A stretch of 64,000 nt of DNA from Rhina ancylostomus (Eukaryota). A program made the position numbers and the translations under genes. Location of the stretch: NCBI GenBank assembly GCA_030265395.1, contig JARFYF010000022.1:30646561-30710560 (forward strand). Reading direction: 5' to 3'. Under the pieces are notes generated by a model. That model did not search any database. It was given only the letters and a program-made list of their open reading frames with translations, and was not told the DNA's origin. Positions 150-63,590 of this stretch are shown one piece after another; position 1 is the first letter of the stretch; every line of letters starts with the position of its first letter.

Positions 150-1300
150 ATTTGTGAGATACATGAAGAAACTTTAGCTTGATGAACTGAAGTAAATAAA
201 GTCTTCATTGAACCACCAACAGACAATGATTGTAGTGCAAAATGACTGATGGTATATGTCTGAAGAAACTAATGAATATAGAATAAAATCATCATACAAG
301 GTTAATATCACCTAATTTAGTGGAAGCAAAGAATTTTCTAAGACCCATGGTCATTTGATCTATATCTCAAACAAAATGGAATTGGTTTACTGAGTGTGAT
401 TTCCTTCTAGCATTGATACAAAGAAACAATGGAAAACTCACAAAGGTTACAGAAGACAGATAATGGACTAAAATGTACAGTTGCTGAGAGGTCCGAGAGC
501 TCACCATCATAAAGCTGATTATAAAAATCCCAGACAGCAGTAATACAGAAGTTGCAGGCAAGATAATGTTGGCTCAGCATACTTTATACTGATTAAGGTT
601 CCAGATATGATGTACAGATTTTTAAAAAAAATAAGCAGTAAAATGATGGACATAACTGATCTGAAATGTAACACTAGGTACGAAACCAAGAGAACATCAA
701 CCAATGAGACTAGTGTAGGTTCAGTTACTTTGTATGCACAGTTAGAAGGGGCAGAAGAGTGAAAGCAGCAATTGGATCAAGTAAAGGAAGCAAAGGAATT
801 TCAAAGACTCACAGTCACTTGATCTATAGTGTCAAACAAAGTGGAAATGCTTTACAGATTGTGATTTCTTTCCACGAAGAGGTAGTTTTGGCAAGTAGTC
901 GAGTGCTCATGGGATCAGAGGTGGGTGTAAAGGCTGATTGATAAGTTATTCAAGGTCATTCAGGAGAACAAAGGATTTAGAATTAGTGTTAGCCTGATCA
1001 GCAGCTGAACATCACCATTGGAGCAATTATTGAGTGAAAACTGAAGTCAGCAAGAATGGTATTTTCAGCAGTGTTGATAGATTTGATCCTGCTTGATACA
1101 GGGTTGAAAGATTTGAGAAAGTTATCAAGATCTGGAGAGTGATAGAGAAAACAGATAAAATGAATGAGGTGAGGGAGAGTATTTTTAGTTGTGGAAGCTA
1201 AATGTTGGATGATTGAAATGAGCTAACAGCTAAAACAGCTGAATCATCAGATTGTGAAAGGATATGCATGGATTGTGCATTAACTCTGCCTTTAGTCGGG
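150..1300 (-). mobile_element. Ancient, heavily decayed L2-type LINE reverse transcriptase fragment
   Basis: Minus-strand translation gives degenerate RT motifs in the expected order: LSTLLK (~1060-1080), LLDPIAAF (761-784; cf. LLDLSAAFD), VSYL (~675-690; cf. WFxSYL), QQLYI (472-486; cf. YADDTQLY), WWFNEDF (~200-220; cf. WMxxNxL). Many stops and frameshifts. Confidence 0.65.
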
Positions 1301-2599
1301 AAGGTGTAAGAAGAGAATTAAAGTCAGATACAAATGAAACAAGGTACTAATATTAAACAAATAAAAAGAGAGTGATTGACAGAATTGAAATCTGAGTGGA
1401 TGCTACAATGTCTGCAGAAGTACAAGTCAAGGAAGTATGAGGAAACTGAATATACAGGTTTCCAAAGTGGTTATAAGATACAAATGTTTATGTTGTTTGT
1501 GATATTATTGGGAAAAAGGATAAAAAAAACAAGTCCCATTGGAACAATAAGCAATGCACCCATGACACTTCAGGAGAATATTGTGACACTGAGGCTGCAC
1601 AGACATCAGTGATATATATAAAAACAGAGAGCATGAGTTGGCATCATTTGTTCAAACTTTTTCCTAACCTAGGAAGGTTATAATTACACTGCTTCTGCAT
1701 TTGAATGAGATAGTTTGCTCTTTCAAACCAGCAGTCAAATTGTGTACTTATTTCCCTACAATATAGAACTGCAAGTAAATCATTTGGTAAATTAAACCAG
1801 AATAGTCCAAATGATCCATGACAATCAGGTTAAGGTGAGAACCATCAATCTTCACAAAAATTATTATTATCCTCCTCTATTCAAACAGTAATATTATACT
1901 CCACTTGTTCATGGTCATTGCTGCTAAATATCAAAATTCAATTGATTCTTGAAAGGCAGTCTTTGCAAATGCGAAAACTTCCATTTATCATTCACAAACT
2001 GCCTTTCCAAACTGAACAGAATGTTTAAAAATTAGAATTGAATAAGTAAAACACACAGGCTGCAGCAGAAAGGATTTATGACCTCTTCTGTGTACATATG
2101 CTTTATTTTATTTCTCCGAAAGACTTTCTGGAAAGGTACAAGGTGATCTATAGGCTTTATAGAGCAAACCTTTTTCTAACCTTCATTTTGAAAGATTGCT
2201 CCACCTTTGGTCCCCATAGAGTAACTGAGTCACATAAACCTGAAAAATCCCACATTCCATTCAAATCCACTCTAAATTAGTTTATTGCCAATACACAGGT
2301 ACATAATACATTTGTCTCAATAACCCTGACCTAAGTACTGAAAAAATTAGCTGGGACTCCTGCTCCAAATTAAGCACTGATATACTCCCACAGTCAATTA
2401 ACCACTCACTTCAAATTCACCTCAGGGAGGTACCAGGAGTTTACCAGTGTCTATGAATTTATACCAGTACAAGTCAGCACCTTCAAATAAGTCATTTGTG
2501 ATACTGATAGAGGAAAAAGGAATGTCTTTGTAGTGACTATATGTGTGTTTAACTTTATAAATGATTTGAAAATCTTCTGTCTTTGTTCTCATAAAATGT

Positions 2600-4740
2600 T
2601 GTAGATTTACATTTCAGTCTGAAAATTTCAGCATTTGCTATGGCTCGTGGAAATAAAGGTGGAGATAACAAACTCAATTCACACATATGCCTGAATATTT
2701 CAACCCAGTATTTTCTGCACCAAATTAGGAAAGAGACTTACTAGCTCTTCCATTGACCAAAAGAAAGAAAACAGTAAAAACAGGAATTTCATGTGTGAAA
2801 TAAAATTCCCTTTATTCCTGAAGCAACATGCTACTTGAATGTGACTACAGGTCAGATAGTTAACCCAACATAAATGGTTATCTTTCAATGAATGTGCATC
2901 AACTGTGGCTAGTGTTTGCCCTGGGGCTACCAGTTGCACTGTAATTATGTGCAGAATCCATAAATCCTTAACATTTCCTGTCTGTTTCCAGCTTATCCAT
3001 CACAGACTTCAAAACATCAGATCCCTGTCCCATTTTCAGTTTCTCCAGATCCTTTAAGAACACATTGAGAGTGGAAATTATGCAGTTTTGATCCAACATG
3101 ATGGAAAGTGCAGCAAAGCTGAAAAAGAAACAGTTTTGAACATCACCCTGTGGGTCATATTCTGATCGTTTACTTGGGCTGTAACTGAAAGAACAAATTA
3201 AATTAGGGAAAAAAATGAATGGTACATTATCCAAACACTATCCAAATGGTATAAATAGCTTTCTCAGCAAAGTGTTTCTGGACCAAAAGTGTCATTCTTT
3301 CCTGACACATTAGACTGAAAAGGGCTTGATGGCAAGGCTGGAGCAAGTTTATATGAACTGTGTAGGTGGTTGATCCTTTGCTGCCAAGAAGACCAACGTA
3401 TCTTTTCAGCTCATTTGTCATGAATAACACAGCATTTTTCCAACGAAAATGACTGAGATTACCTGTACCAAAGCAAGCTCACAGATTCTAACATTTCTAG
3501 AGCTTGGGTGAGAAAATAATCTTGATCCGCCTAAGCAAATCTCTCGACAATAAGCAAAGAATTTCACTGGTTCCAGTTTCACCTTTACCCTCCACAAACA
3601 TCTAGATCTGAATGCTGACAAGTGCAACACAAATATAAGAAGTATGCACTTAACAATGGCTAAAAGGTAAAAACTATTTTGCAAGATTCCATTCATGATC
3701 TGAAGCCTCACTAGATAGTACTTGTCCCTGGAATATCTGAACCCTATCTTTGAACTGCATTCTCATGTAGTTAGACTCGGTATTCCATACTGGAAGCAGA
3801 ATCTCACAGAAGTACTCCAATAAAATATATTGAGACAAGGCTGTATAAATCATTATGGGGGATCAATAGCACAGGATTGGTATTGGCCCAAGCTAAATGT
3901 TTTGATTTGAGGAATAGACTTTAAAAGAAACAGGTCAAGCAAGCATGAGGATGGATTTTAAATGTGTTACTCTGATAAGAGTACCACTGGGGATATAATA
4001 GCAGGACCCTGTAATGATTGGAGAGTTCTATGTTCCCCTCCACTGTGCTCTCCACATTCATTCATTACCCCCAAAAAAGTACTCCAATTCCCTTGTTTCT
4101 TTTAATTTAAATGTTATTGCCCTGATATTACTTTCACTTCAGATCAAAGCAATCTGAAATGCTGAAATTCAAAATTCAAAGTTTGTCTCAATGTCCTTCA
4201 CCACTGAAAGAATCTTAACTCAAAACATAGGTAATTTAGACCTTGAATGATGGTGTAAAACAGGCAATACCAAAGGAAGTGATAAGTTGATGGCTGAATC
4301 CATATTGCATATGGTAAACAGTCACAAAGCTCAAACCAACCCAATATTCAAATAATGCAAATGCAAGAGATTGCCGATGAAAAAAGCATTCAAACCATCA
4401 AGGTCATTCTATCCACAGAAAATGCAGTTTATTAGAGGTACAACTCCAACCATTTCATCTGCTGATGAATGTTGTTGCAAAATTCATCACCATCTCAATA
4501 ATGTAAAATAATATTCATTAAAAAAACCATCTACATTACATCAGGTACACTAGTTGCCTTTCTGGCTGCAGTAAATTCATAGTCAGTTTAGTGAGGAGCT
4601 GACATAATTCACAAAACCAAATAATGTAGTTTATCAGTATTATCTCACAAACAATACTGAAAGACATAGTCTGCCCAAACTTCCAAAATATTTTATAACA
4701 ACGAATGCTTGAGTGCTGCAAACAAAGCTGCAGCACTTAC
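2600..4740 (-). mobile_element. Probable ancient hAT-family (ZNF862/TTF-type) transposase fossil, interrupted
   Basis: Minus-strand ORF pieces in hAT order: WFCELC (zinc-finger-like, ORF 4536-4736), YTVHINL (cf. CxAHxLNL, ORF 3227-3430), FAALSIML...LEKLKMGQG (cf. LSxxFQ...LExLKxxxG, ORF 2968-3234), FFW...FPNL (dimerisation-domain-like, ORF 2700-2939). Motifs are degenerate. Confidence 0.4.
3850..4015 (+). mobile_element. Decayed CR1 LINE RT fragment
   Basis: aaaagaaacaggtc and agagtaccactgggg...gcaggaccctg resemble CR1 RKQRV and SGVPQGSVLGP coding sequence. Confidence 0.45.
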
Positions 4741-5596: not shown

Positions 5597-6525
5597 TCAA
5601 CTAATGATTCCTGGATGAGACATAATTTACTGAGTTACACAAGTTTTATATCACAACTAAGACACTGATTCATGGTTAATATATGTGTCCCTATTGAAAT
5701 GTAGTGGGATCTCAAATGACAATCGCATTGTAATTAAAAATAGAAAATGCTGGAAATACTCAACAGATCAAGCAGTATCTATGCAGAGAAAAACAGAGCG
5801 GATATTCCACAGAATTATCATTCCAATGATATTACAGTTTGCCATGCTGGCATTTTCTGCTCCTATTTCAGATTTCCAGCATCTGTCATATTTTGCTTTC
5901 CTATTATAATATAATGGGGTCATTAACCTTTCCAAAGAAAATCAGGAAAACTACGAACTGAAATGAGCCAATAGTAATGCACTCTGGGCAGCAAGATCAT
6001 GTGAAAGATGCAGCATAAAAGAACACCACATGTAAGAGCTGAACGATGCCTAATGGACCTTCAGTGGCATGATTTATGCAGGTTAAGCAAAAGAAGAACA
6101 GATTGCTTGGAAACTGTTTTCACATATCAGAATCTTTTCCATCCAGAAGTCGCTGTTTCTTTCAAGCTTTTGCCTCATTGAGCAGAATTTCAAACTTGAA
6201 TTTGGTAAATTTGATACTGGCTGCAGGATAGCTTTTCTTCAAAACAAGAAAAATAACAACTTGCAGAATCAGACAAACAAGGCTCATGGACTAGGTTAAT
6301 GCTCTAGTTTCCTGCAGAAAAATCTTGAGTGCTTTGCTATGTAATGCTGAATCCACAATGATACACAGGTTAAAGAGTGCAATTCAACAAGCTTGACTTC
6401 ACAGGAAATTTTCAAGCATCTTCCTGTGACCAAACTTTCAGAGCCAAATCTATCATTTTTCCAAATGAACAGCATGTTAATTGCAGGTCAATTCCTGGAA
6501 TTCAACTAATGATTCCTGGATGAGA
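5597..6525 (+). repeat. 24-bp exact direct repeat pair (5597-5620 and 6502-6525)
   Basis: tcaactaatgattcctggatgaga occurs at both positions, followed by cataat and tgtaat respectively. Confidence 0.9.
5735..5902. mobile_element. Penelope-like terminal-repeat palindrome, decayed (copy 1)
   Basis: Left arm gaaaatgctggaaatactcaacagatcaagcagtatctatgcagagaaaaacagag; right arm gcattttctg...tttcagatttccagcatctg. The centre is deleted. Confidence 0.75.
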
Positions 6526-7409
6526 TGTAATCTCTGTATTATTAAACTTGAATTAAGATTAGGGGGCTCTGAAAAATAAATTATCTCCTTAGGAGAGTAA
6601 TAAATTAAGCTAGTTAGTGAGAAATGGTAGTATTTGGAGAAATGCTACACCAAACTGGAAGCCAATAAGTGCATGGGAGCTGCTGGCATGAGTAAGCTGC
6701 TTTGGTTCTCATCACATGATTTATTTTCCTCTCTATTGCTCCTCCCAAATTATCTTCTGTTTATATCATTTGAGGTTTCTTACTTAATTTCTTTTTTGGA
6801 ATCAGTAGTCCACTCATCTATTCCAGAACATGTGGAATCATTGAAAATTCATAAACAAGAACAAATGTATGTATTTTCCTTGCAGAAATACACACAAAAG
6901 GTTGTTTGTTACCTGCAGAAGTTCCTCAAAGGTTCAACAATAAATGATGGATACTTAACTATATGATAAAATTGGAAATTTTTATATTCCACAAGTACAA
7001 AAATGATTCTGGTAGTTAGTTACAGAACCAGTTTAGTCAGAATTTCTTTATAATGCTTGGCTTCAGCTCCATTTCTCTGTCTGTTATAGTCAGACCTCAT
7101 CACTTTTTGACAACGTACTGGCGTTAAATTGCACAGAGTGCCAAACCCAAGTGACATGAGCCTGCATTCTCTGGAGCTGTCTAATTGCTCGCTCCAGAGT
7201 CAGTAAATGGACTCCATGTGCAGAGCAATGATATTATTTAATGGTGAATCTAGCTCACAGGCTGAATGGCTTGCTCCTGATCTTACATCAGTCATCCTTT
7301 TGTTTTATTATTGTATTCGTTCATTACCTAGACATTGAAAGTGACATTATCGAGGTTACTCCCAAATGCCTTTTGGATAATTCGATTTCATTCATTACGT
7401 ACTTATGAT

Positions 7410-11559: not shown

Positions 11560-12360
11560 TGCCAGCCAGTTCTTGATCACAGCAACCAAACCTACTCCAA
11601 AGTCCCACTGTATTGTTCAACTTGTGCTATATTGCTGCAAGTAGTTCACCAATCAGATAAATCTTGCACTCTTTGCACAAATTTTCAGATGAACTCAATG
11701 TCATCCCAATATCAGCAGCAATTTTCAAATTTTTTTCAAAGTTTAAAAATTTACCTAATAAATAGATATCTCACAACAAGTGGCTGTACAGTGGGACAGT
11801 ATGACACCTCCTTCTCAATATATCTCACTCTGTTTGCCAAAATATAAGCACCACCACTTTGGGAACCATTCCCAGCTTTATTGTTGTTTCAATAAGCTTC
11901 CTAACAAAATTAAGCTTAATGGAGTGCAGCAGTAAGGATAATACTAAAGTCTAAATGTAGGAGGAAACTATAACTGAAAGAATTTCAGCTGACTATAATA
12001 AAATTGCATCAGTTTCTTGCAAACTAGGCATTAGTAATGACTACTTCAATGGATACATGGTGAAAATACCAGGAAGGAGCAGGAACTCATCAGATAACAT
12101 TTTCAAAGAGGCAAGAAGAGTCAAAAGCCTCTTTTTGTGATGTGTCGTTTTATGATACTTAGATACTTATCACTATTATTTCAGACAGTACATCTGAGCC
12201 TCACAAAATTGGCACATCTAAAATAGATGGCTGGATTTTTAGTCACTCCATCAGAAACAAAACAGCAAATTCTTCACAATGCTATGAAAAATAAAACTTA
12301 AAGCCTTGAACAGTCACATTTAAAGCTACAGGGTTTGGATGATCCCATCTCTGAAGTTCA
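11560..12360 (-). mobile_element. Probable second ancient hAT transposase fossil (C-terminal half)
   Basis: Minus strand: SLQETDAILL (~12000-12030; cf. SxxLQxxxxDL), then NFEKNLKIAADIGMTLSSSENLCKEC and I*HKLNNTVG (~11600-11745; cf. FPNLxKLAxIxLTLPxSSAxCER...IKTKLRN). Confidence 0.4.
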
Positions 12361-14666
12361 GACTTCTTAAGATCTGCCCAAAGGAAGATATTAGTGTCCA
12401 GATCAAACTATTTCTGCTTCATTCTTAGCAAGCATAGATGAGCACTATAGTGCTAAGAATGGAGCAGATAAAGGTGCCCATGCTCAACGCATGTATTATG
12501 AATACATGTATCTAATGAAGTTGTCATTAGTAATGTTTAGTTTGGTAAAGAAACTGATGCAATTTTATTATAGTCAGCTAAAATTGTAATGATTTTTCCT
12601 GTACCATCTCTAGTTGAGGTTGGCAATGTTAATGCTAAGGGTATTTTGAACCTACAGGCTGAGGCTCACAATTTCATCTCCTACAAAATTCGCAGGAGAA
12701 TTTAATCTGATGATTCTGGGTCAGGTTTGAACATAAGCACAGGTATACCAACCTACTGTCCTCCACAAAAGTTCTTATTGATAATAAGTAATTGTGAGAC
12801 TTTTACTATGGTGGTCTGCTAGTGTCACAGACATTCACGCTCACCTCAGGCCAAAATAGTTGGTTATTCAGTTGATTCACGAAAAATAGAGTCAGACAGA
12901 GGAAGTGTTTTGAAAGTTATTTTACTTTTACTGGCTGCTTTCCCTGGCTGCTGCCATGACTCACTCCTCTCTATAATGTGCGCATTTCACATTGCGTTGC
13001 TAGACGCACACCCACTCCATGCATGTGTAATGATGTCTCATGTAGGAAAATGTACAGATGTTCTTGAATAATTGACTCCAGAACATTAGGCCCATTATTT
13101 TCGCATTTGCTAACTCATTGAAAACTTAGCTCATCAATATCCAACAAACTGCTTTCATGCATAATACTATGCAGCGGTTTGCAACAAAACCATTTCCCTT
13201 TGCTACAAATTCATTACCAATTCCACTTGTAGCTTCTTCACTTCTAATGTTCTTAATTGTTCTACAACCCTGAGCAGTTATTTTGTACCCAAGGTGGAAT
13301 ATTCATTGCATTTTAGTCACACAGGTTAACGTAAGTTAAAAAAAATCATTGTGCAAAACTTACTCTTGATTTCCTTGACCAATGAAGCTAGTTGGATTTT
13401 GCTGATTGGTTAATTTGCACATTCATTTCAGACAAACAAAATACTGGGATGAAAAGTTCATTTGGTATATGTTGTTTGTGTTGGGGGGGCGTGAATAGGC
13501 ATTTTGTGCATGTGAGTCTTTGTGTGGGGAAGAAGAGAGTTTAGATATTAAATTAAAAATTGGAACTTAAGTGATTTAAACAGAAGTCAGACAAAATTTT
13601 GAACCACTAAGAAATTAAGTTTCCTCTGATAGCATTCTGGTTAAGAGGTTCACATTAATTCCTTTGTGCATCATTTTAATACAATTATTAACCTACTTAT
13701 TTCTAAAATGCTTGAGAATTATGTTAAGTCTTGCACTTTCCACAAAACATGTTAACCTGTTCCCTACCAGAGGCAATTAATTCTAAAGGTTGCAGCATTG
13801 TATATTTAAAGGGCATCAAATTTGCAAGTCAATATGTATCTACAGATTGAAAGCTTCAGGGATATGGCGAAAGGACAATTAACATTTTGATTAAAATAGA
13901 TGGGCATCACAGGGCTTTTAGCTTATTCCTGCTAATTGCTGGAATGATGATCAGTGCTGAACATACTGAACAACAATGTAGCATTAGAAATATAGTATTA
14001 ACTTGAGTGAAGGTTTTGACCTACGATAATTTAAAAGGCAGCATATTATATCAGAACTACAAACAACAGTATTTGAATGTATATACCAAGGCAAGTCTTT
14101 TGCTGAGAACTGCAATGGACCTGCAGATGTACCCTCATCTGGACAATTCTGAAACAGAGGTCTTCCACACAGCAGAGCCCAAGTTGTGAGTCTTCTGCAT
14201 TGCTGGTTGAAGGAGTCTCAATGGAGCATTATTGGACAGCTCAAACCTCTGAAAATTTCCCACTAAACCCACACCAGATTAAACTAGAGCAAATGTCATG
14301 AGCCCCATGAAATTAATGGAAGAAATTGCTGGGACAAAAGTTAAGTAAAATTTTCGGGTCCTGAGTGATAATGAAAGTTTGTGAATGTCAAAGACCTTCA
14401 CATTCATTTTCAGTGGAAGGTTTAATGGCCAGCATCCAGATGACCAGAAAGACTGGAGAGGGACCTCACTGCTGTCAATAACATTTCTGTCATTGCAGCC
14501 AGTCACTTGTTTTGGGAGAGGTCCTGTGTTGTGCTGATATATTAGGAGAAAGGGTCCCGATGGAAGGCTGCAGCCTGGAACACACCAGAAAGAAAGTGTA
14601 GTCTAGATGACTGCTGACCTTGGATTAAAGAATCATCTACCCCTAGAAGCTTCTAATAAACCAAGC

Positions 14667-15199
14667 ATCAGAATCAGCTTTATTATCACTGTCATATGTT
14701 GTGAAATTTGTTGTTTTACAACAGAAGTACAGTGCAAAGACATGAAATTACTATATATTGCAAAATAAATAAATAAATGGAGCGAAATAAAAGTAATAAC
14801 GCAGTAGTGTTCATGGACCATTCAGAAATCTGATGGCGGAGGGGACGAAGCTGTTCCTAAATCATTGAGTGTGGGTCTTCAGGCTCCTGCACCACCTCCC
14901 TGAAGGTAGTAACGAGAAGAGGGCATGTCCTGGATGGTGAGAGTCCTTAGTGATGGATTCTATCCTCTTTGAGGCACCTCCTCTTGAAGATGTCCTTGGT
15001 GGGGAGGGTTGTGCCTGTGATGGAGCTGGCTGAGTCTACAACCCTCTGCAGCCTCTTGCAATCCTATGCATTGGAACCTCCATACCAGGCTGTGAAGCAA
15101 ACAGTCAGAATGCTCTTCACCGTACATCTATAGACATTTGCAAGAGTCTTTGGTGATGTACTAAATCTCCTCAAACTCTTAACGAAGTATAACTGCTGG
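14667..15199 (-). mobile_element. Rex1/Babar LINE 3' end (ORF C-terminus and 3' UTR)
   Basis: Minus strand reads QQLYFVKSLRRFSTSPKTLANVYRCTVKSILTVCFTAWYGGSNA*DCKRLQRVVDSASSITGTTLPT...HHPGHALFSLLPSGRWCRSLKTHTQ*FRNSFVPSAIRFLN and ends in a (TTCTGA)-type tail at 14667. Confidence 0.92.
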
Positions 15200-15396
15200 A
15201 GTGAGATGGATCGGCTGATTGAGTGGTGTCACAACAACAACCTTGCACTCAACATCAGCAGGACCAAGGATTTCAGGAAGGGGAGGTCGGGAGAACACAC
15301 ACCAGTCCTCATTGAGGAGTCAGCAGTGGAAAGGGTGAGCAGCTTCAAGTTCATGGCTGCCAACATCTCAGAGGATCTCTCCTGGGCCCAACCATA
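15198..15396 (+). mobile_element. Inverted 5' segment of the same Rex1/Babar LINE
   Basis: Plus strand reads SEMDRLIEWCHNNNLALNISRTKDFRKGRSGEHTPVLIEESAVERVSSFKFMAANISEDLSWAQ, the RT thumb region that normally lies directly upstream of QRLYF. Confidence 0.9.
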
Positions 15397-15408
15397 TATT
15401 CTGGATAA

Positions 15409-15640
15409 TGGAGACACAAGAGATTCTGCAGATGTTGGAATCTGGAGCAACATGCACAAAATGCTGGAGGAACTGAGCAGGTCAGGTGGCACCTATGGGG
15501 GGAAATAAACAGCTGACATTTCAGGTCGATACCCTTCATCAAAACCTGATGTAAGGTCTCGACCCAAAACATTGACTGGTTATTTCCCTCCATAGATGCT
15601 GTCTGAATTGTTGAGTTCCTCCAGCATTTTGTGCGTGTTG
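15409..15640. mobile_element. Penelope-like terminal-repeat palindrome, second subfamily (copy 3)
   Basis: Arms aaaatgctggaggaactgagcag...tttcaggtcgatacccttcatc and ctgatgtaaggtctcgacccaaaacattgactg...gagttcctccagcatttt. Both carry mutated hammerhead cores. ttctggataa occurs at 15399-15408 and 15641-15650. Confidence 0.85.
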
Positions 15641-15751
15641 TTCTGGATAAATGGGTTTCATCTGGGATCGCCCGTTGAAGAGGAACTTTGTAAAAACAAA
15701 ACACTCAGCAGGGCGGCTACCCAGATGGAAGGAGGAGTCTCTAGATATCTG

Positions 15752-16816
15752 TCTGGAGGATAGCTGAGGTTTTCCCTTTGTTCAAAATGGGATAGTAGGG
15801 ATAATACTGGAAACTGCAGGATGCTGAGTCAAACATCATTGGTAGGGAAGTTGTCGGAAAAGATTCTGAAGGACAGGATTTATGTTCATTTTGAAAGGCA
15901 GGGACTGATTAGGAGGAGTCAGTGGGGTTTTGTGTAGGGGACTTTATGTCTTACAAACTTGATTGAATTTTTTGAAGCAGTAAACAAGGAGACGGATGAA
16001 GGCAGGGCAGTAGATGTTGTCTATATGGACTTTAGTAAGGCTTTTGACAAGGTCATACAAGGTAGGTTGGTCCAGTAGATTAAGGCACAAAGGATCCAAG
16101 GGTAGAATAAATGGCAGGGAGTGTGATGTCTAGAGAGACATTGGGGTGCAAGTCCATAGCTCCCTGAAAGTGGCCACATGGGTGGATAGAGAGGTGAAAA
16201 AGGATTTTGGTACGCTTGCCTTCATAGGCAGAGGCATGGGTATAAAAGTTGGGATGTCATGTTGCAATTGTACAAAACATTGACTGGACCTCACTGAGAT
16301 TATTATGTACAGTTCTGCTTGCCACACTACAGGAAGGATGTGGTAATAACTGAGAGAGTGCAGAAGAGATTCACCAGGATGTTGCCTGGAATGGAGAGCT
16401 GTAGTTATAAGAGACAAGATAGGCTGAGTTTATTCTCACTGGAATGTCAGAGTCTGAGAGGTGACTTTATAGAGGTTTACAAAATTATGAGGGACATAGA
16501 TAGGATAGATCATGAGAGCCTTTTTCCCAGGGCAGGGTAGTCTAAAACTAGAGGACATGGGTTTAATAGGAGAAGGGAGAACTTTGAGAGGGAAGAGGGG
16601 TGGGTGTTCGTACAGAGAGTGGTGAATATTTGGAATGAGGAGGTTGTGGAGGCAGATGCAACTACAACACTTGGACAGATACTTGGATAAGAAAGGAGTT
16701 GAGGATATGGGCTTAATGCAGGCAAATGGGATTTGCATAAATAAGCCTCAGAATCAGCATGGATGAGATGGGCCGGAAGGGCCAGGATCCGTGCTGTACA
16801 TTTCTTTGATTCTATT
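15752..16816 (+). mobile_element. CR1 (HER1-like) LINE, 5'-truncated, with internal RT deletion
   Basis: WRIAEVFPLFK...LTNLIEFFEAV...AVDVVYMDFSKAFDKV...IQG joins at ~16100 to LGVQVHSSLKVA...LQLYKTL...PHYRKDV...ERVQKRFTRMLPG...LRGDFIEVYKIM...SKTRGH. The 3' tail is gggccggaagggcc...gtgctgtac...ttctatt. Confidence 0.95.
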
Positions 16817-18978
16817 CTTTTTTCTCATGGGCAAGGGGGCACCAAGGTGCAAACCACCCTGGGAGCAGAGGCAACAGGCTTGTGGAAACTATTATGAGAT
16901 TTAGATTGAATTGTTGAATTATGACACGGAGAAAAGTTTAGATTTTCTTGGTGTCCTAACCAACATCTACCTTTTACTGAGAGTAAATACTGCTTTGTCA
17001 GTTCTCTAATGTGATGCTATTCCATCTGTAGGTTGACTTCATTGAAGAGGCCCTCAGGCTTTAATGCTGAAATAATACCGTGCAAAGATTGGAATACTGA
17101 TTCAATAACAGCAGCTTTGATTTATATAATTGCAATGAATACTCTTTCAACTTAATTAAATGATTCCTCATGTTCTGGCTTGAGTTTGTTATCCAGATGT
17201 TAGTTCATTACTCAGACTGCAAAAGTATGTTTTTTTTTATAGTCATATAATACAAATTGGTTTCTTCCAGACACTGGGTGACCAAGTTTGGATTTGGTTG
17301 GTATTTAACTTCTGAATGTCTCTTTGCCCAAACTGTTCTATAAAAAATCCAGTAGTTCCTCCACTACAATCCAGTCCAGTCTTTTTTGATATTTTATTAT
17401 CAAAGGGGCGCTCAGAAATTGCAATGGAATGAGATTGCTCCTGACTAAACCCCCAGGCTTTGATGTAATAACTTTTTCTGTGTTACAAACCAACAGGAGT
17501 CATCCTAGCTGCCCCCAAAACAATCTGACTGACATCCATTTATCACCTCCTGTCCCCACTGGTACAGGTAAACTGTGATATTTACACCTATTCCTCCCTG
17601 ACTTGATCTTGGAATGTCATCTTCTCCAAAAGAGAAAATGTAATCAAAGCTAAGAATTTTTGATTAGGAAATGTAACAAAGCTGATTCTAATAATAGAAA
17701 CTTTAAACAAGAAATGGTTAAAATACAAAATAGATTTAACTGAAAACTCCTGAAAACTGCTAGAAGCTAATTAAAATATTTTTTCCTCAGCTTTCGTGTC
17801 TGTCACATCTTGGATATTTGGCAATATCAAAGGTACTATTGTTAGAATCAACAGTTCAAAATTTTACAATCTAAACACTCTCAGATTTGAATTAAGTCTC
17901 TCTTTTGAGTTGTTCGTATAATGAGGCCCAGGCTGATAAGAACAGTTATGAAACCCTGTATCTTACATCAGCATCCCAACATAAAGATGAGGAGTCAGAT
18001 GCAAAATACATCCTGAACCTCTCCAGAATCCTGTGCTGTGCCAATGGACTCAATGCTGGGTCCAGTGGTAGGCTGGGGCATCAGATCCGCCAAGCTGAAT
18101 AGCAAGTAGTGGAGGTACTAGCTATAGTTAGGTACAATCTGCTCCGTTGGCTTCATCTTCTGAAGGAGCCTTTATGTAAAAGCTATGGCATTGAATTTGC
18201 AGTGTGCAATTTAAGTGTAATAAAATAAATAAACAATATATAAAATAAAAGATACAAAAAGTATCCTCTGCCAAAATATTTGTAAATATTAAGGTATTAT
18301 TTATTAAATAAAGGATATTGTTCAATGATCAGAACCTTTTATTTATTTTAAGAAAGAGATTCTGAATTTTGCAGTTGACCCAATCACATATTACCCATCA
18401 TTCTGTTGTTCCACATTAACAACATTAAGTGTCATTTATCCTATGAGTGGTTTTCAATATGTAGCTTTACACCCACCAGAGTAATTTGGATAACTACTTT
18501 TTTACTGAAATTATTATTTATATAAATCTAAAAAAACATTTGGATTAAGTAACTGCTTAATCCTTTTAAATATGGATTTGGAACTGATTATATGGATACA
18601 GAATATTTGCAGATGACTCAGATGGATAATTATTGTAGATCCTTTTCTACAAGGATAATGGGGTTTAATTCAATATCCTTAATGTATGCAGAGATGAGAA
18701 CTGGTCATTTGCAACTCTGTGCTACCTGACATATCTGGTATTACAGTATTCAGCCAGTATGACTTGCTCTTTTCATTGGCTGTAATAACAATAGGGAGTC
18801 AATATTATAGGTGGTTAGCTCCAGATAAAACTGCTGCTAACGCTATCACTGATATGGTGCCCAGTGCGATTTACCCTACATGTGTGGTTGTGTGGTGGCC
18901 ATCCAGGAGATCGAAGGATGCTTGTAATGTCCAAAGAAAGGCAGTCTGAATTTCACACCAATCGTTTAATAATGCTCA

Positions 18979-19203
18979 AGTGAAAACAGTAAATGCTGGA
19001 AACACATAGGAGGTCAGGTAGCATTTGACAATCGGTTATTATTTCAGGTTTGATACTCTTTGTTGGAGGTCTGATGAAAGGTATTAGACCTGAAATATTA
19101 CCTGTTTCTCCTTCCACAGATCCTGCCTGACCTACTGAGATTTTCCATTTTTTTCTGCTTTCATATCATATTTCCAGCGTCTGCAGTTTTTGTTAATTTT
19201 TGC
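18979..19203. mobile_element. Penelope-like terminal-repeat palindrome with 13-bp TSD (copy 4)
   Basis: Arms aaatgctggaaacacataggaggtcaggtagcat / atcctgcctgacctactgagattttcca. Flanked by ttaataatgctca (18966-18978) and ttaataatgttca (19204-19216). Confidence 0.88.
19067..19103 (+). ncRNA. Minimal type-I hammerhead ribozyme motif (Penelope-type)
   Basis: AGGT-CTGATGA-A-AGGT-ATTAG-ACCT-GAAA-TAT-T-ACCT: stem I AGGT/ACCT, core CUGAUGA and GAAA, stem II AGGT/ACCT, palindromic loop-less stem III (ATAT), cleavage triplet AUU. Transcription and activity are not shown. Confidence 0.7.
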
Positions 19204-22859: not shown

Positions 22860-23092
22860 GTTGCTACTAGCAAGGCTGTGGAATATGCCCATTTGGTCTC
22901 ACCCTATGAACAACATTCCCTTGCTTTACCCATCCCTTCGCCACTTATCTGCTACCTTTTCTTTCTCAGTTCTGACAAAGTGTCCTGGACCTGAAATGTT
23001 AACTGTTTCTCTTTCCACTATGCTACCAGACCTGCTGAATGTTTCCAGCATTTTTTTAATTTCAGATTTGCAGTATCTGCAGTTTTATTGAT
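22860..23092 (+). mobile_element. Penelope-like terminal repeat, single arm with decayed hammerhead (copy 5)
   Basis: cagtt-ctgacaa-agtgtcctggacct-gaaa-tgtt-aactg (perfect CAGTT/AACTG stem I), followed by cagacctgctgaatgtttccagca...tttcagatttgcagtatctgcag. Confidence 0.8.
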
Positions 23093-50529: not shown

Positions 50530-51741
50530 GACTTACAATTGTGATTTATGATTCATCTTTCACGAGCTCAGCATATCACAAAGTGTCAACTTTTATATCT
50601 ACCTGAGAGTGCATATAAGCCCTTCATTTAAGATCTCATCTGAAAGTGGGCAACTACAACAATGAAAGCACCATTTGTGCTGCATTGTGATGTGGACAAC
50701 GTCAATGTGTATTTATATAGTACGTTCAATGTACCCAAGTGCTTCATATCAGCATTATCAAATGAAATTTGGCAGTAGCCACATAAGATATTAGAGCAGA
50801 TGATCAATTGGTCAACTGTAAATATTTTAAGAGAAGTCTTACAGGAAGAAAGCTGGAAAGGTAAAGGGAGAGAAAGCTTAAAATATTTGCAGCTGTAGTC
50901 ATAGTTGTCAATGCAAGAGCAATTAAATATGTCTTGGACATATTCAAGAAGTCAGAATGAGAGACACACAGTTATTTAAAATCATACATTTATAAAATTG
51001 TTAAGGCATAGAAGGCGGCAATTTAGCCCATCATGTCAATGCTGGCTCCCAGCAGAGCAAATCTATTAGTCCTATTCTCCTGCTCTTCAGGAAGAGATTA
51101 CAGATATATGAAAAGACAAGACAATGGAGGGATTTGAAAACAAGAGCAATAATTTAGAACTTGCATTGGAGCTTCACCAGAATTCAACTCAGTCACTCAG
51201 CACTGAGGTGATAGATGTACAAGGCATGGTGAAGACTAGGACATGTGCAACAGCATGAGATAAAGTATACAAAGGGTACAATGAGAGACAATAGCCAGTA
51301 GTATATTAGAACAGCCATATATAGAGGGAGAAAGATTGTGGATGAAGGTTTCATCAGCAGATGAACTGTGGAGGTGAGGGTGGGATTGGGAGAGGATAGG
51401 TGATGTAATGGAAGTGGTAGTTGTCAATCTTGGTGATCCTACGCTCAACTGAGGTAATTCAATGTTGTGAACAACAGTTCTATTTTGGATAGCTGCTGGG
51501 AACAGGGTGGGGGGGGGGTGGGGTACGTGGTGGTGAGAATCAGAGGGTGATGATTGGTGTTTATAACAGGAACCAAGACAAAGGCGATGGTCTTCCCAAT
51601 GAGACATTTCTGCACATCTAATACTGGATTTTTTTTTGAATTTAGAGACAGTGATCAATCTTGACTTGTGCATGATTCTCTGAAGTGAGACTTCAGTCTA
51701 AAAGCTTCCAACATAGATACAAGAGTGCAACTGTCAAGCCA
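50530..51741 (-). mobile_element. Nested insertion: DeuSINE-like element split by L2, itself interrupted by a CR1-type tail
   Basis: SINE tail and Deu domain at 50530-50696 (tttaagatctcatctgaaag...gcacc...tgcattg), L2 3' end from ~50697 (tgtatttatatagtac), CR1 tail at 50980-51088 (gcatagaaggcggcaatttagcccatcatgtc), SINE head remnant at 51680-51741 (gagacttcag...gagtgcaactg). Confidence 0.6.
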
Positions 51742-53759
51742 CCTTCATTAATTTCAAAATATGCTCAGGTGGTCCAGTGAGATTCACATTAACACAAAAG
51801 ATGTAGAGCAATAAAATGGGCCTATTAAATTTGTTCAAATCAATAATATGGAGCTGACTAAAGGCCTTGCTATTGAATAAGAAATGGCTGGAAAGCTGGC
51901 AGGAATCAGCCACTATTAAATGAAACAATGTTTAATGTCACTTTATTCTAACTGAATTGATAATATACATGCTTAGATGTATCACAATGCTCTGCTAAAT
52001 TTTAAATATTCTGGTGGACAGAACTCCCAAAGTACATGTTAAAAATACTTTGTAGTAAGTTTTTATAGAGCCTGGAGATCTACTGCCTGAGTGCTTTTTA
52101 AACCTGCCATATCACTGCACTACCGTTCTGTTCCATTTAATGTCAAGCATAAGTGTTTTCAGGTGACCTCCCTGAGAGGGTCTCAGTGCTGCAATGTATA
52201 ATCAGATCACAGACTGACTCCAAAATTATAATGTCTAACTTTAAGACTGTAAATAGTCACATAGCTCTTGCCCCCACCCACCCTCACCTCCACAGCTCAT
52301 GTAAGTCCATACTCTTGCTCCCTCTATATATGCCTGTTCAGTTGTAATGGTCCAGATGTGATTAGTGCATGGATCACTTCACTACTCAGTGCAATAATGC
52401 TCAGGTGACTGAAGATGCCTTCTCCAAACTTAGGTTAAACCTTAAGGAAATGTTTTAAGTATCAATATATTTTAAGTAAAAACTGCTCTGCACAAACCTA
52501 AAACTATTATAAATAATAGATTTAAATGATCAATAAGTCCTTAGCACAAAATGAATAAAATTATACAGTTGAAGTTGTATAGTGAGATCTTGGTGTATAT
52601 TAGTGCTGATGAAACACACAAAATGATTTAATGACACCACTAAAACAGAAGACCAAAGAATTTCATACCAATTTGTGAAGCATTCACACTCTAACCTCAG
52701 ACAGCACAGATTTTATTCTTAGGGCTATATTTTAAGACTTTACAGTTTCTCATAGAAATGACTGAGCATTTGGCCAGAGGTGTTAAGCCTTTAGGTGAAG
52801 TGGAAACCTGAAGCTGTGTGCAAATTTTTTTGCACTTTTTGCACAGCTGAAGCCTGGACCTTCTTTGCAAGTACATTTTAACAGTCAGTACAGCCACTTC
52901 TTTTTTTAAAGAATAACCTGTTGTAGTTAATAGGCAAAATATCTATCTGATCTATGTTACCTGCCTAATAACAGCCTAAATGTGTGTAGAAGCATTTAGA
53001 GGTTCAATGGAAGTCAAGGGGTCCTCTCTGTACAACGAAGATACTCAGACATCTCAATCCTACGGTTTCCAATCACAGAATTGTTAAATTGTATTCTTAA
53101 TATTGATAAAGGTATTTTCTTTTGCAATATCTAGTTTTTTTTAAATTCTAAGATTCATTGCAACTGAATGTCAAGATGGCAAGCATTTCAATGGATGCAC
53201 AAGAAGCTACATTATCTCGAGGGATCTCACTGTCATGGGGTACCTCAAATGCTAAAAGAATGGCAAATAATCCATTAACTGTGCTCCTAATACATCCTAA
53301 TGTGAATTACAGGGACAAGGCCTTAACCAAGTCCTGTCAACCATGTCACAGCAACTTTCTACATGACTATGACCTAATAGGTCAATTCAGTCTGTTGAAA
53401 ATAGAATGGAATTGTTTCAAATGCAGCAATACATGTTTAGTCAATGATTTACAATGATGTGGGATGTTACATCAAGTATATTGGTTAATTAAAAATTTAT
53501 GTTATCCAATAATCTGTGTGTACAGATTAAGCTCAAACAAGGGGTTGACTGCTGCCTTCAAATTGTTCCTAAATATCTATTATTTCACTTCCTGCATGTA
53601 TAACAGCATTCAAAAGTGTTCTTACTTAATCTGAAAGATTTTTAACTACCAGTCTCTCCACAATTAGATTCACACTGAATGTATAATGATTGTGACAATA
53701 CTACTGCAGGTTTATAATTCTTAGCTCCCTAATGCCACAGGGTAAATGTACTATAGACT

Positions 53760-54010: not shown

Positions 54011-56854
54011 AAGTGTCCAAAAGCTGTAAAGTCATACTCCATCAGGAAAGGTCTTTGACATCAGAAAATATTGTAAAAATATGTAATCACTCAACTAGGT
54101 TGGGCTACAGCCAGAAAATGTGAGAAAGTGCCCGGAGTCCAGTCCGTGCCTCATGTATTCCAGTGACCATCATTTACTCACAACTTTGTTGTTTTAGAGA
54201 TATCAAGCCTAGTCATTTGAGAGATGTAAATTATGATCCCTGGATGACATAACAAGAATTATGTTTTTAATGACAGGTGAGTTTTCAAGCATGAAATACA
54301 TCTGGTATATATCACCCATGTTGTCACTCATTTATTTGATGCCAATATGCAGAAAAGAGAATTAGGCTTAAGCTGAAAGAAAGTAATGTTGTGGCAATAT
54401 GCATTTTGTGTGATATACTGAATTCCTGAAATTGTTCTCAGTTGTTGGCTTGTAACAATTCAAACTTCACATTAGATTTCTAAAGCTCCATTTCTTTCTT
54501 ACCAAGTGTAAGCCATGATGGCAGTTCATAATTATTGCATTTCACAGTTCAAATGGAAATACTGCAAAATGCCTTTGCACTCACAATTATGTTTTTATTT
54601 ATATCTTAGTGATAGCAATAAACTTATTCTACTAACTCTAGGATTATAACTCTAATCAGATTGGATGAAGATTTATTCCTTTATGGGGGAAAAACTATAT
54701 TGTTGTCTTTTAATCAGTGTCAACAAGCAACTGTCTGCAGTGGATGACTTCCGTGAACAAAAGAACAGAGGCTATAAGCCACAGAATTGGCATAGCATAG
54801 AGCCTTTATCAGTCAAATGGATTTCCAGTTTAAAATAAGTATTCAGTCCAGTTGATAGTGACCACAACTTTCAGTCTATAAACTAAACCTTTGGCCCATA
54901 GGTCACAGAATTGACCTCTATTGTGCAATAATACTCTCAGCCTTCGATTTTGGGTATTATAACTCAATTAATCACTCTGCAACTCTGCAGTCAATAGTTT
55001 ACTGCTGTAGATCTCAAATAGTCAATATCTGGATAAAATATATCTTGCATCTTGACGAACTCAATATATTCTATTGGATTACAGATTAAATAAAGCATAA
55101 GAGTTAAGTGCTACTTAAACACTGCAGTTTTTTAAAATGCAGCTGTATGACTGTGCACAAGGTGCAGCCTTGGGATCTGTTAATTACAATTGAACTCTCT
55201 GAGGATTATAGAAGCATATTTGCATCATGTCAAGAATACATACACATATAAAATCAACTTCAGGAATGGGCACTTTCTCCCTAGGGTGTAAATAATTAAA
55301 CATTATTCCGTTTGTATACCTAATGTTTTGCTTATGATTAGTCTCCTGTTACAAACTTGAGTATTGCATGTTTAATAAGAAATATGATTTGTCAGCAAAT
55401 AATTACTTCGACATGTTAATGAAGTCAAGGTTGCCTCAATTGTTTTTCAAATATTCAGCGAAAAAAGTCCAACGATTAAATATAATAGAGGCAACTTAGA
55501 TTCCATAAAACTGACGATTGTTTTCCATTACGTCCTTGGAATAAGTCTTGAGGGCTTGATCATGGTGTTAGGGATCAGAGTGCATAAGATGGGAAAGTCT
55601 AAGAAAATGTTCAGAGTTTGAGTTCTATTTCTCACTTTTGCAAAATAGACTAACACTATTTAAAATTGGGTGAACGTCCATATGCAGACGATATACGGGC
55701 CCCATACAGACTATAAACTACTCCGTATGTTTTCTCAATAAGAATTGTTCCTATATATCTGCAGCTGTTGGCACACATTTTCAAATACATTGTTGAAAAC
55801 TCCAAAATGTTTGCTCTTTGGACAGGGTGAGCTTGAATTCACGACAATACCGTATGTGTACTTTTCCAAACTTTATGACCTGCTCTGGAGAAGCCAGAGA
55901 AATGGATAGTTCCCTTGACTCTCTCCCTAACACACGGCCAGTTGGAGAGTACGGTTCGTGGTTCTACTGCATGCTACTATTGACTACTGCTGCTGGTGGT
56001 GCTTTGGTCTCCGGAGCCTGCAGAATGAACGGATCTGTGGCTGGAACCGTTTGCAGAAGAATGAATCTTGCAAAAATCACATCCTGAGTGTTCGCCAAGC
56101 CTAGAGGGAGAAATCGCCAAAGATTCACCAACTCCGAGCTGCTCCGCGAACAAAATCACACACAACTGAGCACTACACAACTGTGCTTGTTAAACTAATC
56201 AAACTAAAAGCCGTTCGCAAACAACATCTATTTCTCTAATGGGATGAGGGGGCATTCAATCCAGTATCGCNNNNNNNNNNNNNNNNNNNNNNNNNNNNNN
56301 NNNNNNNNNNNNNNNNNNNNNNNNNNNNNNNNNNNNNNNNNNNNNNNNNNNNNNNNNNNNNNNNNNNNNNATCCAGTATCGCGTCAAGTAATTTTAAGTA
56401 TATATGATGGGACCTTTAGTTGCGCATATCTGTGCTGCATGTTCACATCTTGCAGGGCTAAATTGCAGTGAATTACGTTAGGATGAATTGAATAGCCCCG
56501 GCACCACAATGTCCTTTCAGACCTACTCGCTCTGCTGCTTTGACTTGTGCCCGCTGTGATGGGAAATCTGAGCCTCTGTCAGCCAGCCCCGACCTTAACC
56601 CTGTTTGACAGCCCACACTCCTCTCCCGGTCACTGGCAATCTCCTTTTAATCTTTTCACAGTTGCCTTTCCATTACAACTGAAATGTTTGTGTCAAGTAG
56701 AAGTGTTTTCTCGATCATTGTTTCCCCTTCGCGGTACTCTGTTCTTTTCAACATTCGTGAACATTTGCTCTCGAGTGTCTCTGGTTCCTGTTGGCCACCA
56801 ATATGTTGGTTCACCTTTTTATCCTCTTCATTCTGTCTGTTCCCTTTTGTCCCT

Positions 56855-57035
56855 CCTCCCCCCCCCCCCGCCCCCGCTTCTCTGTCTATCACCCTTCTCT
56901 CCCCTTTTGCGCTGGTACAGATTCTCTGTCCAGTCCAAACGTCAAGGATAAGGAGCAAGCATTATTTGAACGGACGCGCCATATAAAGGTGCTCAGGATA
57001 CACATAGGCGGGGCTACTTTCCCTCCCAGGGGAAC
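56855..57035 (+). promoter_or_regulatory. Motif cluster: GC boxes, TATA/CArG-like element, EBF/COE site
   Basis: ccccgcccccgc (~56866-56877), ccatataaagg (56979-56989), ggcggggc (57007-57014), tcccagggga (57024-57033). Confidence 0.35.
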
Positions 57036-60000: not shown

Positions 60001-61982
60001 CCTTCTCCAACCAAAAAAGTGTGAATAAAGGAAGGTCAGCTATCAAATCGATAACATCAGGGTTTCTAACTGGTAAACAGGCATTGTCCCATTTAGAGAT
60101 ACCATTTAACGCTTTCCTTCTTTCAAGCAATGGGTGGAACAGTTATTGCAATATTTCACAGAAAAAAATACCTTATTCGGATTTCAAACAGCACGTCACC
60201 GATGGGGCCACAGAAAGAAATACCCCAAATTACTTTAAAGAAGCGTGTATTTGTTAAGAAAGTGTGTCGATGCATTCAATATTAAAATTAAAAGCAGATT
60301 TAAAGATGAGCTCCACGCCAAACAAAACATAAATATTCTGATTTTTTGAATAAGGAAACTGGGTGCATGAATATAAAACTGTATAAAACTTCCTAAACAA
60401 TACAGTTATTGTTATCCGATCGATATCCATACAGTTTGGGGGAAATTGTGTAGTTCTGCATTTCATTATTGTTCGAAAATAATGTTATCAGTGGTGTTTC
60501 AAAGTAAATTTTACGACTCACGTTTGGCCCCTGTAGTTGACAGAAGTGCGTGATCGCGCCAATGAACTGCTATATGGAAAGGTTGGGTATTGTCTCCTTA
60601 TGAGTCGGTCTTTGGATGTCTGTTTTATTTTAATTTACGTGCTTGTGCATTCTTCTCAGGTCAATTTGCATGACCCTCCCCGGCAGAACTAACTAAAAAA
60701 ATTTATCTCAGACAAAGGCAAGAATGGGTAAACTCGCAGAAATGCCTGCGTTATAAATTCTTTTTTTTAAAAAAAATAGTTTAATACAAACATCAGACAG
60801 CATCTTAAGCGTCCAGATTGCAACTTTATAATTCTGTAATCAGAGGCTTTCCACAGGCGGTACTTAACATCTAGTACCGCGGTGTGGACAGAGTCGAAAT
60901 TGCCGCCTGCCTGTATCAGGGAACTGTTGCTAATTGTTTCTATACTACACGGGTGACCAGTGCAACATGAACTAAACTTCGCGTTATTAATTCAAGGTGC
61001 TGCGACACTATCATTTTCAAAACGAAATCACAGCTTTTCCGAAAATCTTATCTCCCTACTTGTATTCGGAAACGCCGGGGTCTGGATTCCTTCCTCTTTC
61101 CCACCCCAGATTGCTTGGTGAAACTCCGATTCCCAGTGTACGGGATGATCGCCTTCCAAAGCGTGCGGTTTGGCGTAAAGAGCAGCTCGTGAAAGGAAAG
61201 AATAGGGGTTGCTGGGGGGGGGGGGGGGAGAGAGACTTCTTTCATGTTTGTGGGGAGCACAAAGATTTCAATTTTTAATAACTCGCGAGGATTTTTAGAT
61301 TATAGATGACTAAATGAAGTTGGGGGGGGGGGTGGCGGTTTNNNNNNNNNNNNNNNNNNNNNNNNNNNNNNNNNNNNNNNNNNNNNNNNNNNNNNNNNNN
61401 NNNNNNNNNNNNNNNNNNNNNNNNNNNNNNNNNNNNNNNNNNNNNNNNNNNNNNNNNNNNNNNNNNNNNNNNNNNNNNNNNNNNNNNNNNNNNNNNNNNN
61501 NNNNNNNNNNNNNNNNNNNNNNNNNNNNNNNNNNNNNNNNNNNNNNNNNNNNNNNNNNNNNNNNNNNNNNNNNNNNNNNNNNNNNNNNNNNNNNNNNNNN
61601 NNNNNNNNNNNNNNNNNNNNNNNNNNNNNNNNNNNNNNNNNNNNNNNNNNNNNNNNNNNNNNNNNNNNNNNNNNNNNNNNNNNNNNNNNNNNNNNNNNNN
61701 NNNNNNNNNNNNNNNNNNNNNNNNNNNNNNNNNNNNNNNNNNNNGGCCGAATCGCTGGCAGAAGGTGCCGATGGGCTGCCGAAAAATAATATTGCTATTC
61801 TCTGTGGAACAAGTGAAGGCGATGGTTAGTGCTGTCAATCTTGGCGATCAATTCCAGCGGCCATGTCGCAAGTATTCAAAGCATTTCCCGTCGTGCAACA
61901 TCAGAAAGTGAATGGCCAGGGCATTGATCTTATGGCTCCCCCCTCGCAACCAGCCTTGATGTCTACTGCTCCCAAGACCAGC

Positions 61983-63557: not shown

Positions 63558-63559
<2 letters not shown>

Positions 63560-63588: not shown

Positions 63589-63590
<2 letters not shown>

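What the first reader, a model, noticed from the sequence alone, without database searches (positions are those of the whole stretch)
19067..19103. Complete minimal hammerhead ribozyme core inside a palindromic insertion
Seen: AGGT-CTGATGA-A-AGGT(ATTAG)ACCT-GAAA-TAT-T/ACCT. Every canonical core nucleotide is present (C3 U4 G5 A6 G8 A9, G12 A13 A14 A15.1, U16.1, H17), with a 4-bp stem I, a 4-bp stem II and one extra A after A9. Stem III is the loop-less palindrome ATAT, so it can only form between two motifs. Stem I here is AGGT/ACCT, whereas copy 22968-23004 has AGTT/AACT, a compensatory pair change. Established: Penelope-like elements carry minimal type-I hammerheads with tiny palindromic stem III, proposed to act as dimers. 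Inference: the rest of this copy is clearly diverged but the core is intact, so it may still self-cleave, and could affect a host transcript if the region is intronic.
Basis: partly seen in the sequence, partly recalled or inferred. Interest (0 to 1): 0.75.

Follow-up and report, generated by a model that had tools for sequence, protein, structure and literature searches.

The report
Decayed Penelope fold-back hammerhead copy
The hammerhead ribozyme letters are really there, on one arm of a 225-base hairpin-shaped insert of a very abundant repeat that is likely the tail end of a Penelope-like jumping gene; this copy likely kept its core by chance and is predicted to misfold, so it is probably an ordinary, inactive relic of a known kind.

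Summary
The motif is as described. It is the only full minimal-hammerhead match in the window, against 0 in 300 null windows. It lies on the right arm of a 225-bp fold-back insertion (18979-19203) with a 13-bp target-site duplication and a one-sided 38-nt tail, the published marks of Penelope-like elements. The family has 13 arms in the window and 672-4050 contigs per run in four other organisms.

The intact core needs no selection. With arms about 20% diverged, at least one of 10 would keep all 11 core letters with probability 0.56-0.78. The ATAT palindrome likely reflects CpG decay. Orthologues in three organisms diverge over the element like the flanks, but their core letters were hidden, so that test is inconclusive. 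No host gene was found. Verdict: a known kind, likely a dead copy.

The parts
18966..18978 (+). left target-site duplication (13 bp, 1 mismatch to the right copy)
   Evidence: 0 of 400 random zone pairs score as high
18979..19066 (-). inverted left arm; it starts at the C3-equivalent of its own hammerhead, which is broken (U4, G5, G8, U16.1 changed), and has a 7-nt internal deletion
   Evidence: over the 33-nt hammerhead part the arms differ by 9 transitions and 2 transversions
19067..19070 (+). stem I 5' strand AGGT, also the loop of the genomic hairpin; G19069 is likely derived (T in 7 of 7 sibling arms that have their own 5' strand)
   Evidence: 12 of 15 listed paralogous contig pieces that reach this end start at 19070-71 (table 8)
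19071..19078 (+). core box CUGAUGA plus the extra A typical of Penelope minimal hammerheads
   Evidence: published consensus
19079..19091 (+). stem II, 4 bp (A10.1-U11.1, not G-C), 5-nt loop; the family has a fifth pair (C at 19083 in 70-86% of depth)
19092..19099 (+). GAAA, loop-less palindromic link TA (likely decayed CG), U16.1 and H17; cleavage would be after 19099
19100..19103 (+). stem I 3' strand ACCT; the family has A at 19101 (88-90% of depth)
19104..19165 (+). body of the right arm, 19% diverged from the sibling majority (10 of 53 sites scored in 19104-19160)
19166..19203 (+). 38-nt tail present on this arm only
   Evidence: arm pairing ends at 18981/19163; tail shared with 5853-5895 and 22968 copy; feature described in PMC8557442
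19204..19216 (+). right target-site duplication

Best explanation
This is one arm of a 225-bp fold-back insertion with a target-site duplication and a one-sided tail, likely made of two 5'-truncated, head-to-head copies of the end repeat of a Penelope-like retroelement, whose inherited minimal hammerhead likely kept its core letters by chance and is predicted to misfold rather than cut. Steps. SHOWN: repeat family, hairpin anatomy, TSD, tail, all core letters, presence at the same site in three other organisms. INFERRED from published Penelope biology: reverse transcriptase and GIY-YIG endonuclease of an autonomous element copied the 3' end of its RNA twice in inverted orientation at an AT-rich site, and in the active element the hammerhead cut the precursor RNA weakly, as a dimer or with protein help. 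INFERRED from rates: after insertion the copy decayed neutrally (CpG to TA, loss of one stem II pair, two stem I transversions). PREDICTED: if transcribed on the + strand, the RNA forms the long arm-to-arm hairpin or a local 10-bp hairpin that buries CUGAUGA. No effect on a host gene is needed.
For: Family: 13 arms in the window; 2434, 672, 3193 and 4050 contigs laid in four other organisms, almost all on the arms. Anatomy matches PMC8557442 passages (inverted 5'-truncated copy, 30-40 bp one-sided tail), and PMC4209133 reports opposite-strand pairs and mostly single truncated motifs. Same hammerhead layout sits at the 3' end of GIY-YIG ORFs in 3 of 19 metagenome ORFs scanned (L028, L042, L063). 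Neutrality: core mismatches 18 of 110 (0.16) against body 0.21; P(at least 1 intact arm of 10) 0.56-0.78. Element against flank divergence in orthologues: 4.9 vs 5.2%, 7.7 vs 7.2%, 6.2 vs 7.2%, Fisher p 0.84-1.0 (tallied). Folding: 37-mer MFE is the misfolded hairpin, -11.3 kcal/mol, 77%; hammerhead fold +5.4 (37-mer), +11.9 (19040-19130), +19.4 kcal/mol (whole insert). Putting the family letters in lowers the penalty to about 2 kcal/mol. Only 1 of 60 distinct metagenome motifs has a penalty as large as this copy (5.1 vs median 1.7).
Against: The stem I double change is two transversions, and A>C was seen in 0 of 66 body A sites; the chance of any transversion-only compensatory pair is 0.03 per arm (0.29 for 10 arms), and of that together with an intact core about 0.3-0.5% per arm. 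Core divergence (0.16; 0.18 without the focal arm) is slightly below body divergence (0.21). The orthologues' letters inside the core were hidden under paralogue depth, so local conservation is not excluded. Nearest-neighbour energies leave out the non-canonical core contacts and any protein help, and even the family-majority dimer scores 14 kcal/mol above its cofold minimum (this copy 20). No RT/GIY-YIG sequence was linked to this family here (tblastn of 8 metagenome ORFs against the window, best E 0.2). U-A links occur in published motifs (Latimeria, C. remanei), so TA is not itself damage.
Confidence: 0.84

Rival explanations
1. Same origin, but this copy can still cut itself at a low rate, as a dimer with another copy's RNA or with help from a Penelope protein, with no selected role for the host.
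For: All 11 invariant core letters, a palindromic link and 4-bp stems are present. The Anolis Penelope hammerhead cleaves only when the element's protein is added (PMC11167929 passages), so naked-RNA folding can mislead.
Against: Predicted hairpins bury the core by 5-19 kcal/mol. A dimer partner needs a matching palindrome: this copy has TA and most siblings TG; the other arm is on the opposite strand and broken; the nearest same-strand arms are 3.5 and 3.9 kb away and lack core letters. Published dimers cleave weakly, and 8 of 9 Xenopus retrozyme dimers did not cleave (bioRxiv 10.64898/2026.07.22.740005).
Confidence: 0.1
2. The copy was domesticated: selection keeps its core and restored stem I by a compensatory change, and it cuts or regulates a host transcript.
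For: Intact core plus a double-transversion compensatory pair (joint chance about 0.3-0.5% per arm); insertion shared by four organisms; precedent of conserved intronic hammerheads in amniotes (PMC6155905 passage).
Against: The element as a whole diverges like its flanks. The G that completes the new stem I pair also creates the misfold (penalty 5.4 falls to 2.2 kcal/mol with the family T). One stem II pair is lost. With thousands of copies, many such combinations are expected by chance. No host exon was found.
Confidence: 0.04
3. The insert is some other hairpin element (MITE- or SINE-like) and the hammerhead likeness of its family is incidental.
For: No Penelope ORF was linked by sequence to this family here; similarity to the metagenome Penelope loci is limited to the hammerhead (at most 11.7 bits).
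Against: The family majority reproduces the whole published layout: boxes, bulged A, palindromic link, both stems. The arms are unequal, with a one-sided tail and solo arms truncated at different points, unlike terminal inverted repeats. No tRNA gene in the window.
Confidence: 0.02

Closest known systems
Minimal hammerheads (min-HHR) of metazoan Penelope-like elements (Cervera and De la Pena 2014, PMC4209133; parts 1-2 of 4 of the text and part 2 of 3 of supplement file 2 read)
   Same: CUGANGA-H, stem II, GAAA, palindromic loop-less link, U-H, short stem I; dispersed single motifs and opposite-strand pairs from truncated elements.
   Different: A10.1-U11.1 instead of the consensus G-C; stem II only 4 bp; predicted to misfold; no cartilaginous fish in the alignment part read, and 0 hits for shark, skate, Callorhinchus or Leucoraja in the supplement files searched (file 1 could not be searched).
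Inverted, 5'-truncated Penelope-like element insertions with one-sided tail (Craig et al. 2021, PMC8557442; passages read)
   Same: Head-to-head truncated copies, 30-40 bp tail at one end only, hammerhead near the 3' end.
   Different: Only 225 bp, no coding part; the parent ORF was not seen here.
Poseidon element of Anolis carolinensis (Frangieh et al. 2024, PMC11167929; passages read)
   Same: Vertebrate Penelope with a minimal hammerhead, AT-rich targets and a tail explained by internal start of reverse transcription.
   Different: That element is intact and active in vitro; its hammerhead needs the protein and is not needed for insertion.
Animal non-LTR retrozymes (PMC7229834, listing only; bioRxiv 10.64898/2026.07.22.740005, parts 1 and 3 of 5 and passages read)
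   Same: Short non-coding hammerhead-bearing repeats tied to Penelope ends; reported in one chondrichthyan genome.
   Different: Retrozymes are head-to-tail tandem arrays; this is a single head-to-head insertion.
Domesticated intronic hammerheads of amniotes, such as RECK (PMC6155905, passages read)
   Same: A retroelement-derived type I hammerhead in non-coding DNA.
   Different: Those are highly conserved and intronic; here the element diverges at flank rate and no host gene was found.

Membership tests
Minimal hammerhead of metazoan PLEs | CUGANGA and GAAA boxes, U16.1, H17 | tested here: met
   11 of 11 invariant letters
Minimal hammerhead of metazoan PLEs | [quoted passage not shown] | tested here: met
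   A19078; feature listed
Minimal hammerhead of metazoan PLEs | palindromic 15.2-16.2 with no loop 3 | tested here: met
   T19096-A19097; likely decayed CG
Minimal hammerhead of metazoan PLEs | G10.1-C11.1 pair | tested here: not met
   A19079-U19091; the family carries G at 19079 in 47-61% of depth and A in 7 of 10 window arms, so both states are common. For this reason it is filed as a decayed descendant of the motif, not as a consensus member.
Minimal hammerhead of metazoan PLEs | stems I and II can form as the preferred fold | tested here: not met
   prediction only: hammerhead fold 5.4-19.4 kcal/mol above the ensemble
Minimal hammerhead of metazoan PLEs | self-cleavage as a dimer or with protein | not testable with these tools
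   needs in vitro transcription
Penelope-like element (EN+) | RT plus GIY-YIG ORF upstream of the end repeat | tested here: inconclusive
   no remnant in the window (tblastn); no genome held; same hammerhead layout follows GIY-YIG ORFs in 3 of 19 metagenome ORFs, but those are other families
Penelope-like element (EN+) | inverted 5'-truncated copy adjoining the 5' end | tested here: met
   4 such pairs among 13 arms in the window
Penelope-like element (EN+) | 30-40 bp tail at one end only | tested here: met
   19166-19203, 38 nt
Non-LTR retrozyme | head-to-tail tandem units, each with a hammerhead | tested here: not met
   single head-to-head insertion; same-strand arms lie kilobases apart
Domesticated intronic hammerhead | core conserved above neutral rate across species | tested here: inconclusive
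   orthologue letters in the core hidden by paralogue depth; whole element at flank rate
Domesticated intronic hammerhead | lies on the sense strand of a host intron or UTR | tested here: inconclusive
   no exon identified; only 30 candidate frames were scanned with Pfam, of 878 of 35 aa or more

The most novel reading that the evidence does not exclude
A Penelope relic domesticated in cartilaginous fish as a switchable ribozyme: selection kept the core and a compensatory stem I pair at a site shared by at least four organisms, and the competing hairpin keeps it off until a protein, RNA editing or a partner RNA opens it and it cuts a host transcript.
Probability: 0.04. Interest if true: 0.65.

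Novelty: new member of a known kind. Interest (0 to 1): 0.1.

Why it matters
As it stands it matters little: minimal hammerheads in Penelope end repeats are published, and this is one decayed copy among thousands. It is a useful caution for scans. In such families an intact core is expected in about 8-14% of old copies, CpG decay keeps the stem III palindrome for free, and an apparent compensatory change can be the very change that misfolds the RNA. It would matter if the core proved conserved across species and transcribed, because that would be a domesticated minimal hammerhead outside amniotes.

Tried and rejected
Rfam scan at E<=1: no hammerhead family matched. Whole genome: none held, so no copy count and no search for longer copies. 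Viral contigs pattern scan: 0 matches. Metagenome-contig scan: 116 loci from a scan that stopped at 42 of 64 parts; they share the hammerhead layout but not the family body, so they serve only as an analogy and a folding benchmark, and they were selected by a pattern that requires stem II. Sequencing runs: no RNA holder listed, which says nothing on expression. Run X3 gave no single-copy piece over the site; only 4 of 12 listed runs were laid. Core-versus-flank test: attempted, but paralogues swamped 18964-19028 and 19054-19200; the tallies assign unlisted differences to the element by subtraction. The first core count (0.236) used a shifted alignment for two arms with a shorter loop II and was replaced by anchored counts (0.164); three arms with no alignable hammerhead were left out of both (10 of 13 used). 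Depth ratios of about 5900-7400 are not a copy number and are not used as one. Host gene: rough exon scoring, one protein search of the best candidate and Pfam on 30 frames found nothing. Dimer energies are crude and only weakly separate this copy from the family. Lunse et al. 2017 is not held and is known only through the review PMC6765202 (passages). Paper searches: 'Penelope + shark genome + palindrom' 0 papers; 'hammerhead ribozyme + shark' 22 papers, none by title or abstract on shark genomic ribozymes; 'Penelope + Chondrichthyes + transposable element' 12. Repbase, Dfam, subscription papers and bioRxiv supplements were not visible and may already hold this family.

Full report
OBSERVATION. 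The bare boxes are within chance (1 seen, 2.0 expected). The full descriptor matches only here, against 0 matches in 300 simulated windows. Rfam reports no hammerhead. Copy 22968 has AGTT/AACT but has lost G8.

THE INSERTION. The motif opens the right arm of a fold-back element. The left arm runs on the minus strand from 19066 to 18979 and the right arm from 19067 to about 19165, followed by a 38-nt tail with no partner on the left. The unit is flanked by a 13-bp duplication with one mismatch (18966-78, 19204-16), a score not reached in 400 random zone pairs. The left arm's hammerhead has lost four core letters; over 33 nt the arms differ by 9 transitions and 2 transversions, so they are homologous. 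A profile finds 13 arms in the window, in four inverted pairs and five solo arms. In runs of four other organisms 2434, 672, 3193 and 4050 contigs lay on a 521-base stretch, nearly all on the arms. That the host is a shark or ray rests on my recall of such repeats and on unchecked earlier notes, not on a call.

WHAT IT IS. Cervera and De la Pena (PMC4209133) define this motif in Penelope-like elements, mostly as single truncated copies and sometimes as opposite-strand pairs. Craig et al. (PMC8557442 passages) describe the adjoining inverted truncated copy and the one-sided 30-40 bp tail. A pattern scan of metagenomes gave 116 loci with the same hammerhead layout. Six hold matches on both strands, head to head (two of the six, L059 and L110, look like the same sequence), and 3 of 19 long ORFs scanned carry a GIY-YIG domain on the same strand just upstream of the motif or overlapping it. 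These are other families, alike only in the hammerhead. No Penelope coding remnant lies in this window and no genome is held, so the link of this family to an ORF is inferred from anatomy.

IS THE INTACT CORE SURPRISING? Ten arms have an alignable hammerhead. They differ from the sibling majority at 21% of body sites and at 18 of 110 core sites (16%). At those rates an arm keeps all 11 letters with probability 0.08-0.14, and at least one of ten does so with probability 0.56-0.78. The link is TG in 6 arms, CA in 1, TA in 2 and AA in 1, and 32-40% of family depth has C at 19096. CG decayed on both strands gives TA, so the palindrome survives without selection, though U-A links also occur in published motifs.

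THE COMPENSATORY PAIR. The family state is AGTT/AACT: T in 7 of 7 sibling 5' strands, A at 19101 in 88-90% of depth, and the left arm of this same insertion reads AACT in all three organisms that cover it (A at 19034). AGGT/ACCT is therefore likely derived in this arm, or comes from a minor variant; arm 46342 has ACCT without the G. The chance of some compensatory double change in 9 stem pairs is 0.16 per arm, and of a transversion-only one 0.03. A>C was seen at 0 of 66 body sites, so this pair is the best point for selection. It was picked after the fact, in a family of thousands.

FOLDING. The G at 19069 lets the 5' end pair with the 3' side of stem II in a 10-bp hairpin (-11.3 kcal/mol, 77% of the ensemble). 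The hammerhead fold lies 5.4 kcal/mol higher in the 37-mer, 11.9 higher in 19040-19130 and 19.4 higher in the whole insert, where the arms pair. With the family T at 19069, or the family C at 19083, the gap is about 2 kcal/mol, and the family-majority motif folds with stem II and a palindrome-flanking helix. One of 60 distinct metagenome motifs has a penalty as large. These are predictions that ignore core contacts and proteins; the Anolis element's hammerhead cleaves only with its protein (PMC11167929 passages).

ORTHOLOGUES. Contigs at single-copy depth span the hammerhead in organisms B, D and E (records 9, 25 and 1), so the insertion predates their split. Over the element they differ by 4.9, 7.7 and 6.2%, and over flanks by 5.2, 7.2 and 7.2%. 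Their letters inside the core are hidden under paralogue depth, and an 11-nt deletion in D and E lies somewhere in the swamped parts. The decisive core test is therefore open.

CONTEXT. No host exon was identified (30 of 878 candidate frames scanned). The second arm cannot serve as dimer partner because it is antisense and broken; the nearest same-strand arms lie 3.5 and 3.9 kb away and lack core letters.

VERDICT. It is built like a Penelope minimal hammerhead and descends from one. It fails the G10.1-C11.1 consensus pair and the predicted fold, so I file it as a decayed copy of a known kind. Dead relic 0.84; weakly cleavable but without role 0.10; domesticated 0.04; other element 0.02. Earlier AI notes of this scan reached the same reading in other genomes; they are not independent evidence. 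Supplement file 1 of PMC4209133, bioRxiv supplements and repeat databases were not visible and may already list this family. Interest 0.1.

Noticed in passing
window 15399-15650: Second fold-back insertion of a related subfamily with a perfect 10-bp TSD (15399-408 / 15641-50) and a one-sided tail. As at 19067, the two hammerheads meet head to head with only 3-4 nt between their C3 positions, so the fold-back junction may favour the 5' edge of the ribozyme. The other two pairs in the window break elsewhere, and metagenome pairs have 31-310 nt spacers.
   Followed up: partly
window 18964-19028 or 19054-19116: Orthologous contigs of organisms D and E lack 11 letters somewhere in these parts (table 8); the place is hidden and could lie in the hammerhead.
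   Followed up: partly
window 19104-19122 and 19150-19185: The family carries pyrimidine tracts ending in CAG just 3' of the hammerhead and again in the tail, and often just 5' of stem I (22950-22970); they look like splice acceptors.
   Followed up: no
window 56001-64000: CpG observed/expected rises from about 0.15 to 0.6-0.8, as near a promoter; no exon identified.
   Followed up: partly
window 14950-16900: Broken reading frames that resemble LINE reverse transcriptase pieces (recalled likeness; no Pfam match at E<=0.05).
   Followed up: partly
window 11981-12018 and 12548-12585: 38-bp inverted repeat, 97% complementary, 529 nt apart; looks like a young MITE.
   Followed up: no
window 51309-51342 and 52306-52339: 34-bp inverted repeat, 88% complementary, 963 nt apart.
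   Followed up: no
L048, L082, L085, L101: Hammerhead-like matches with a CTGAGGA box in more GC-rich contigs, unlike the animal-type loci.
   Followed up: no
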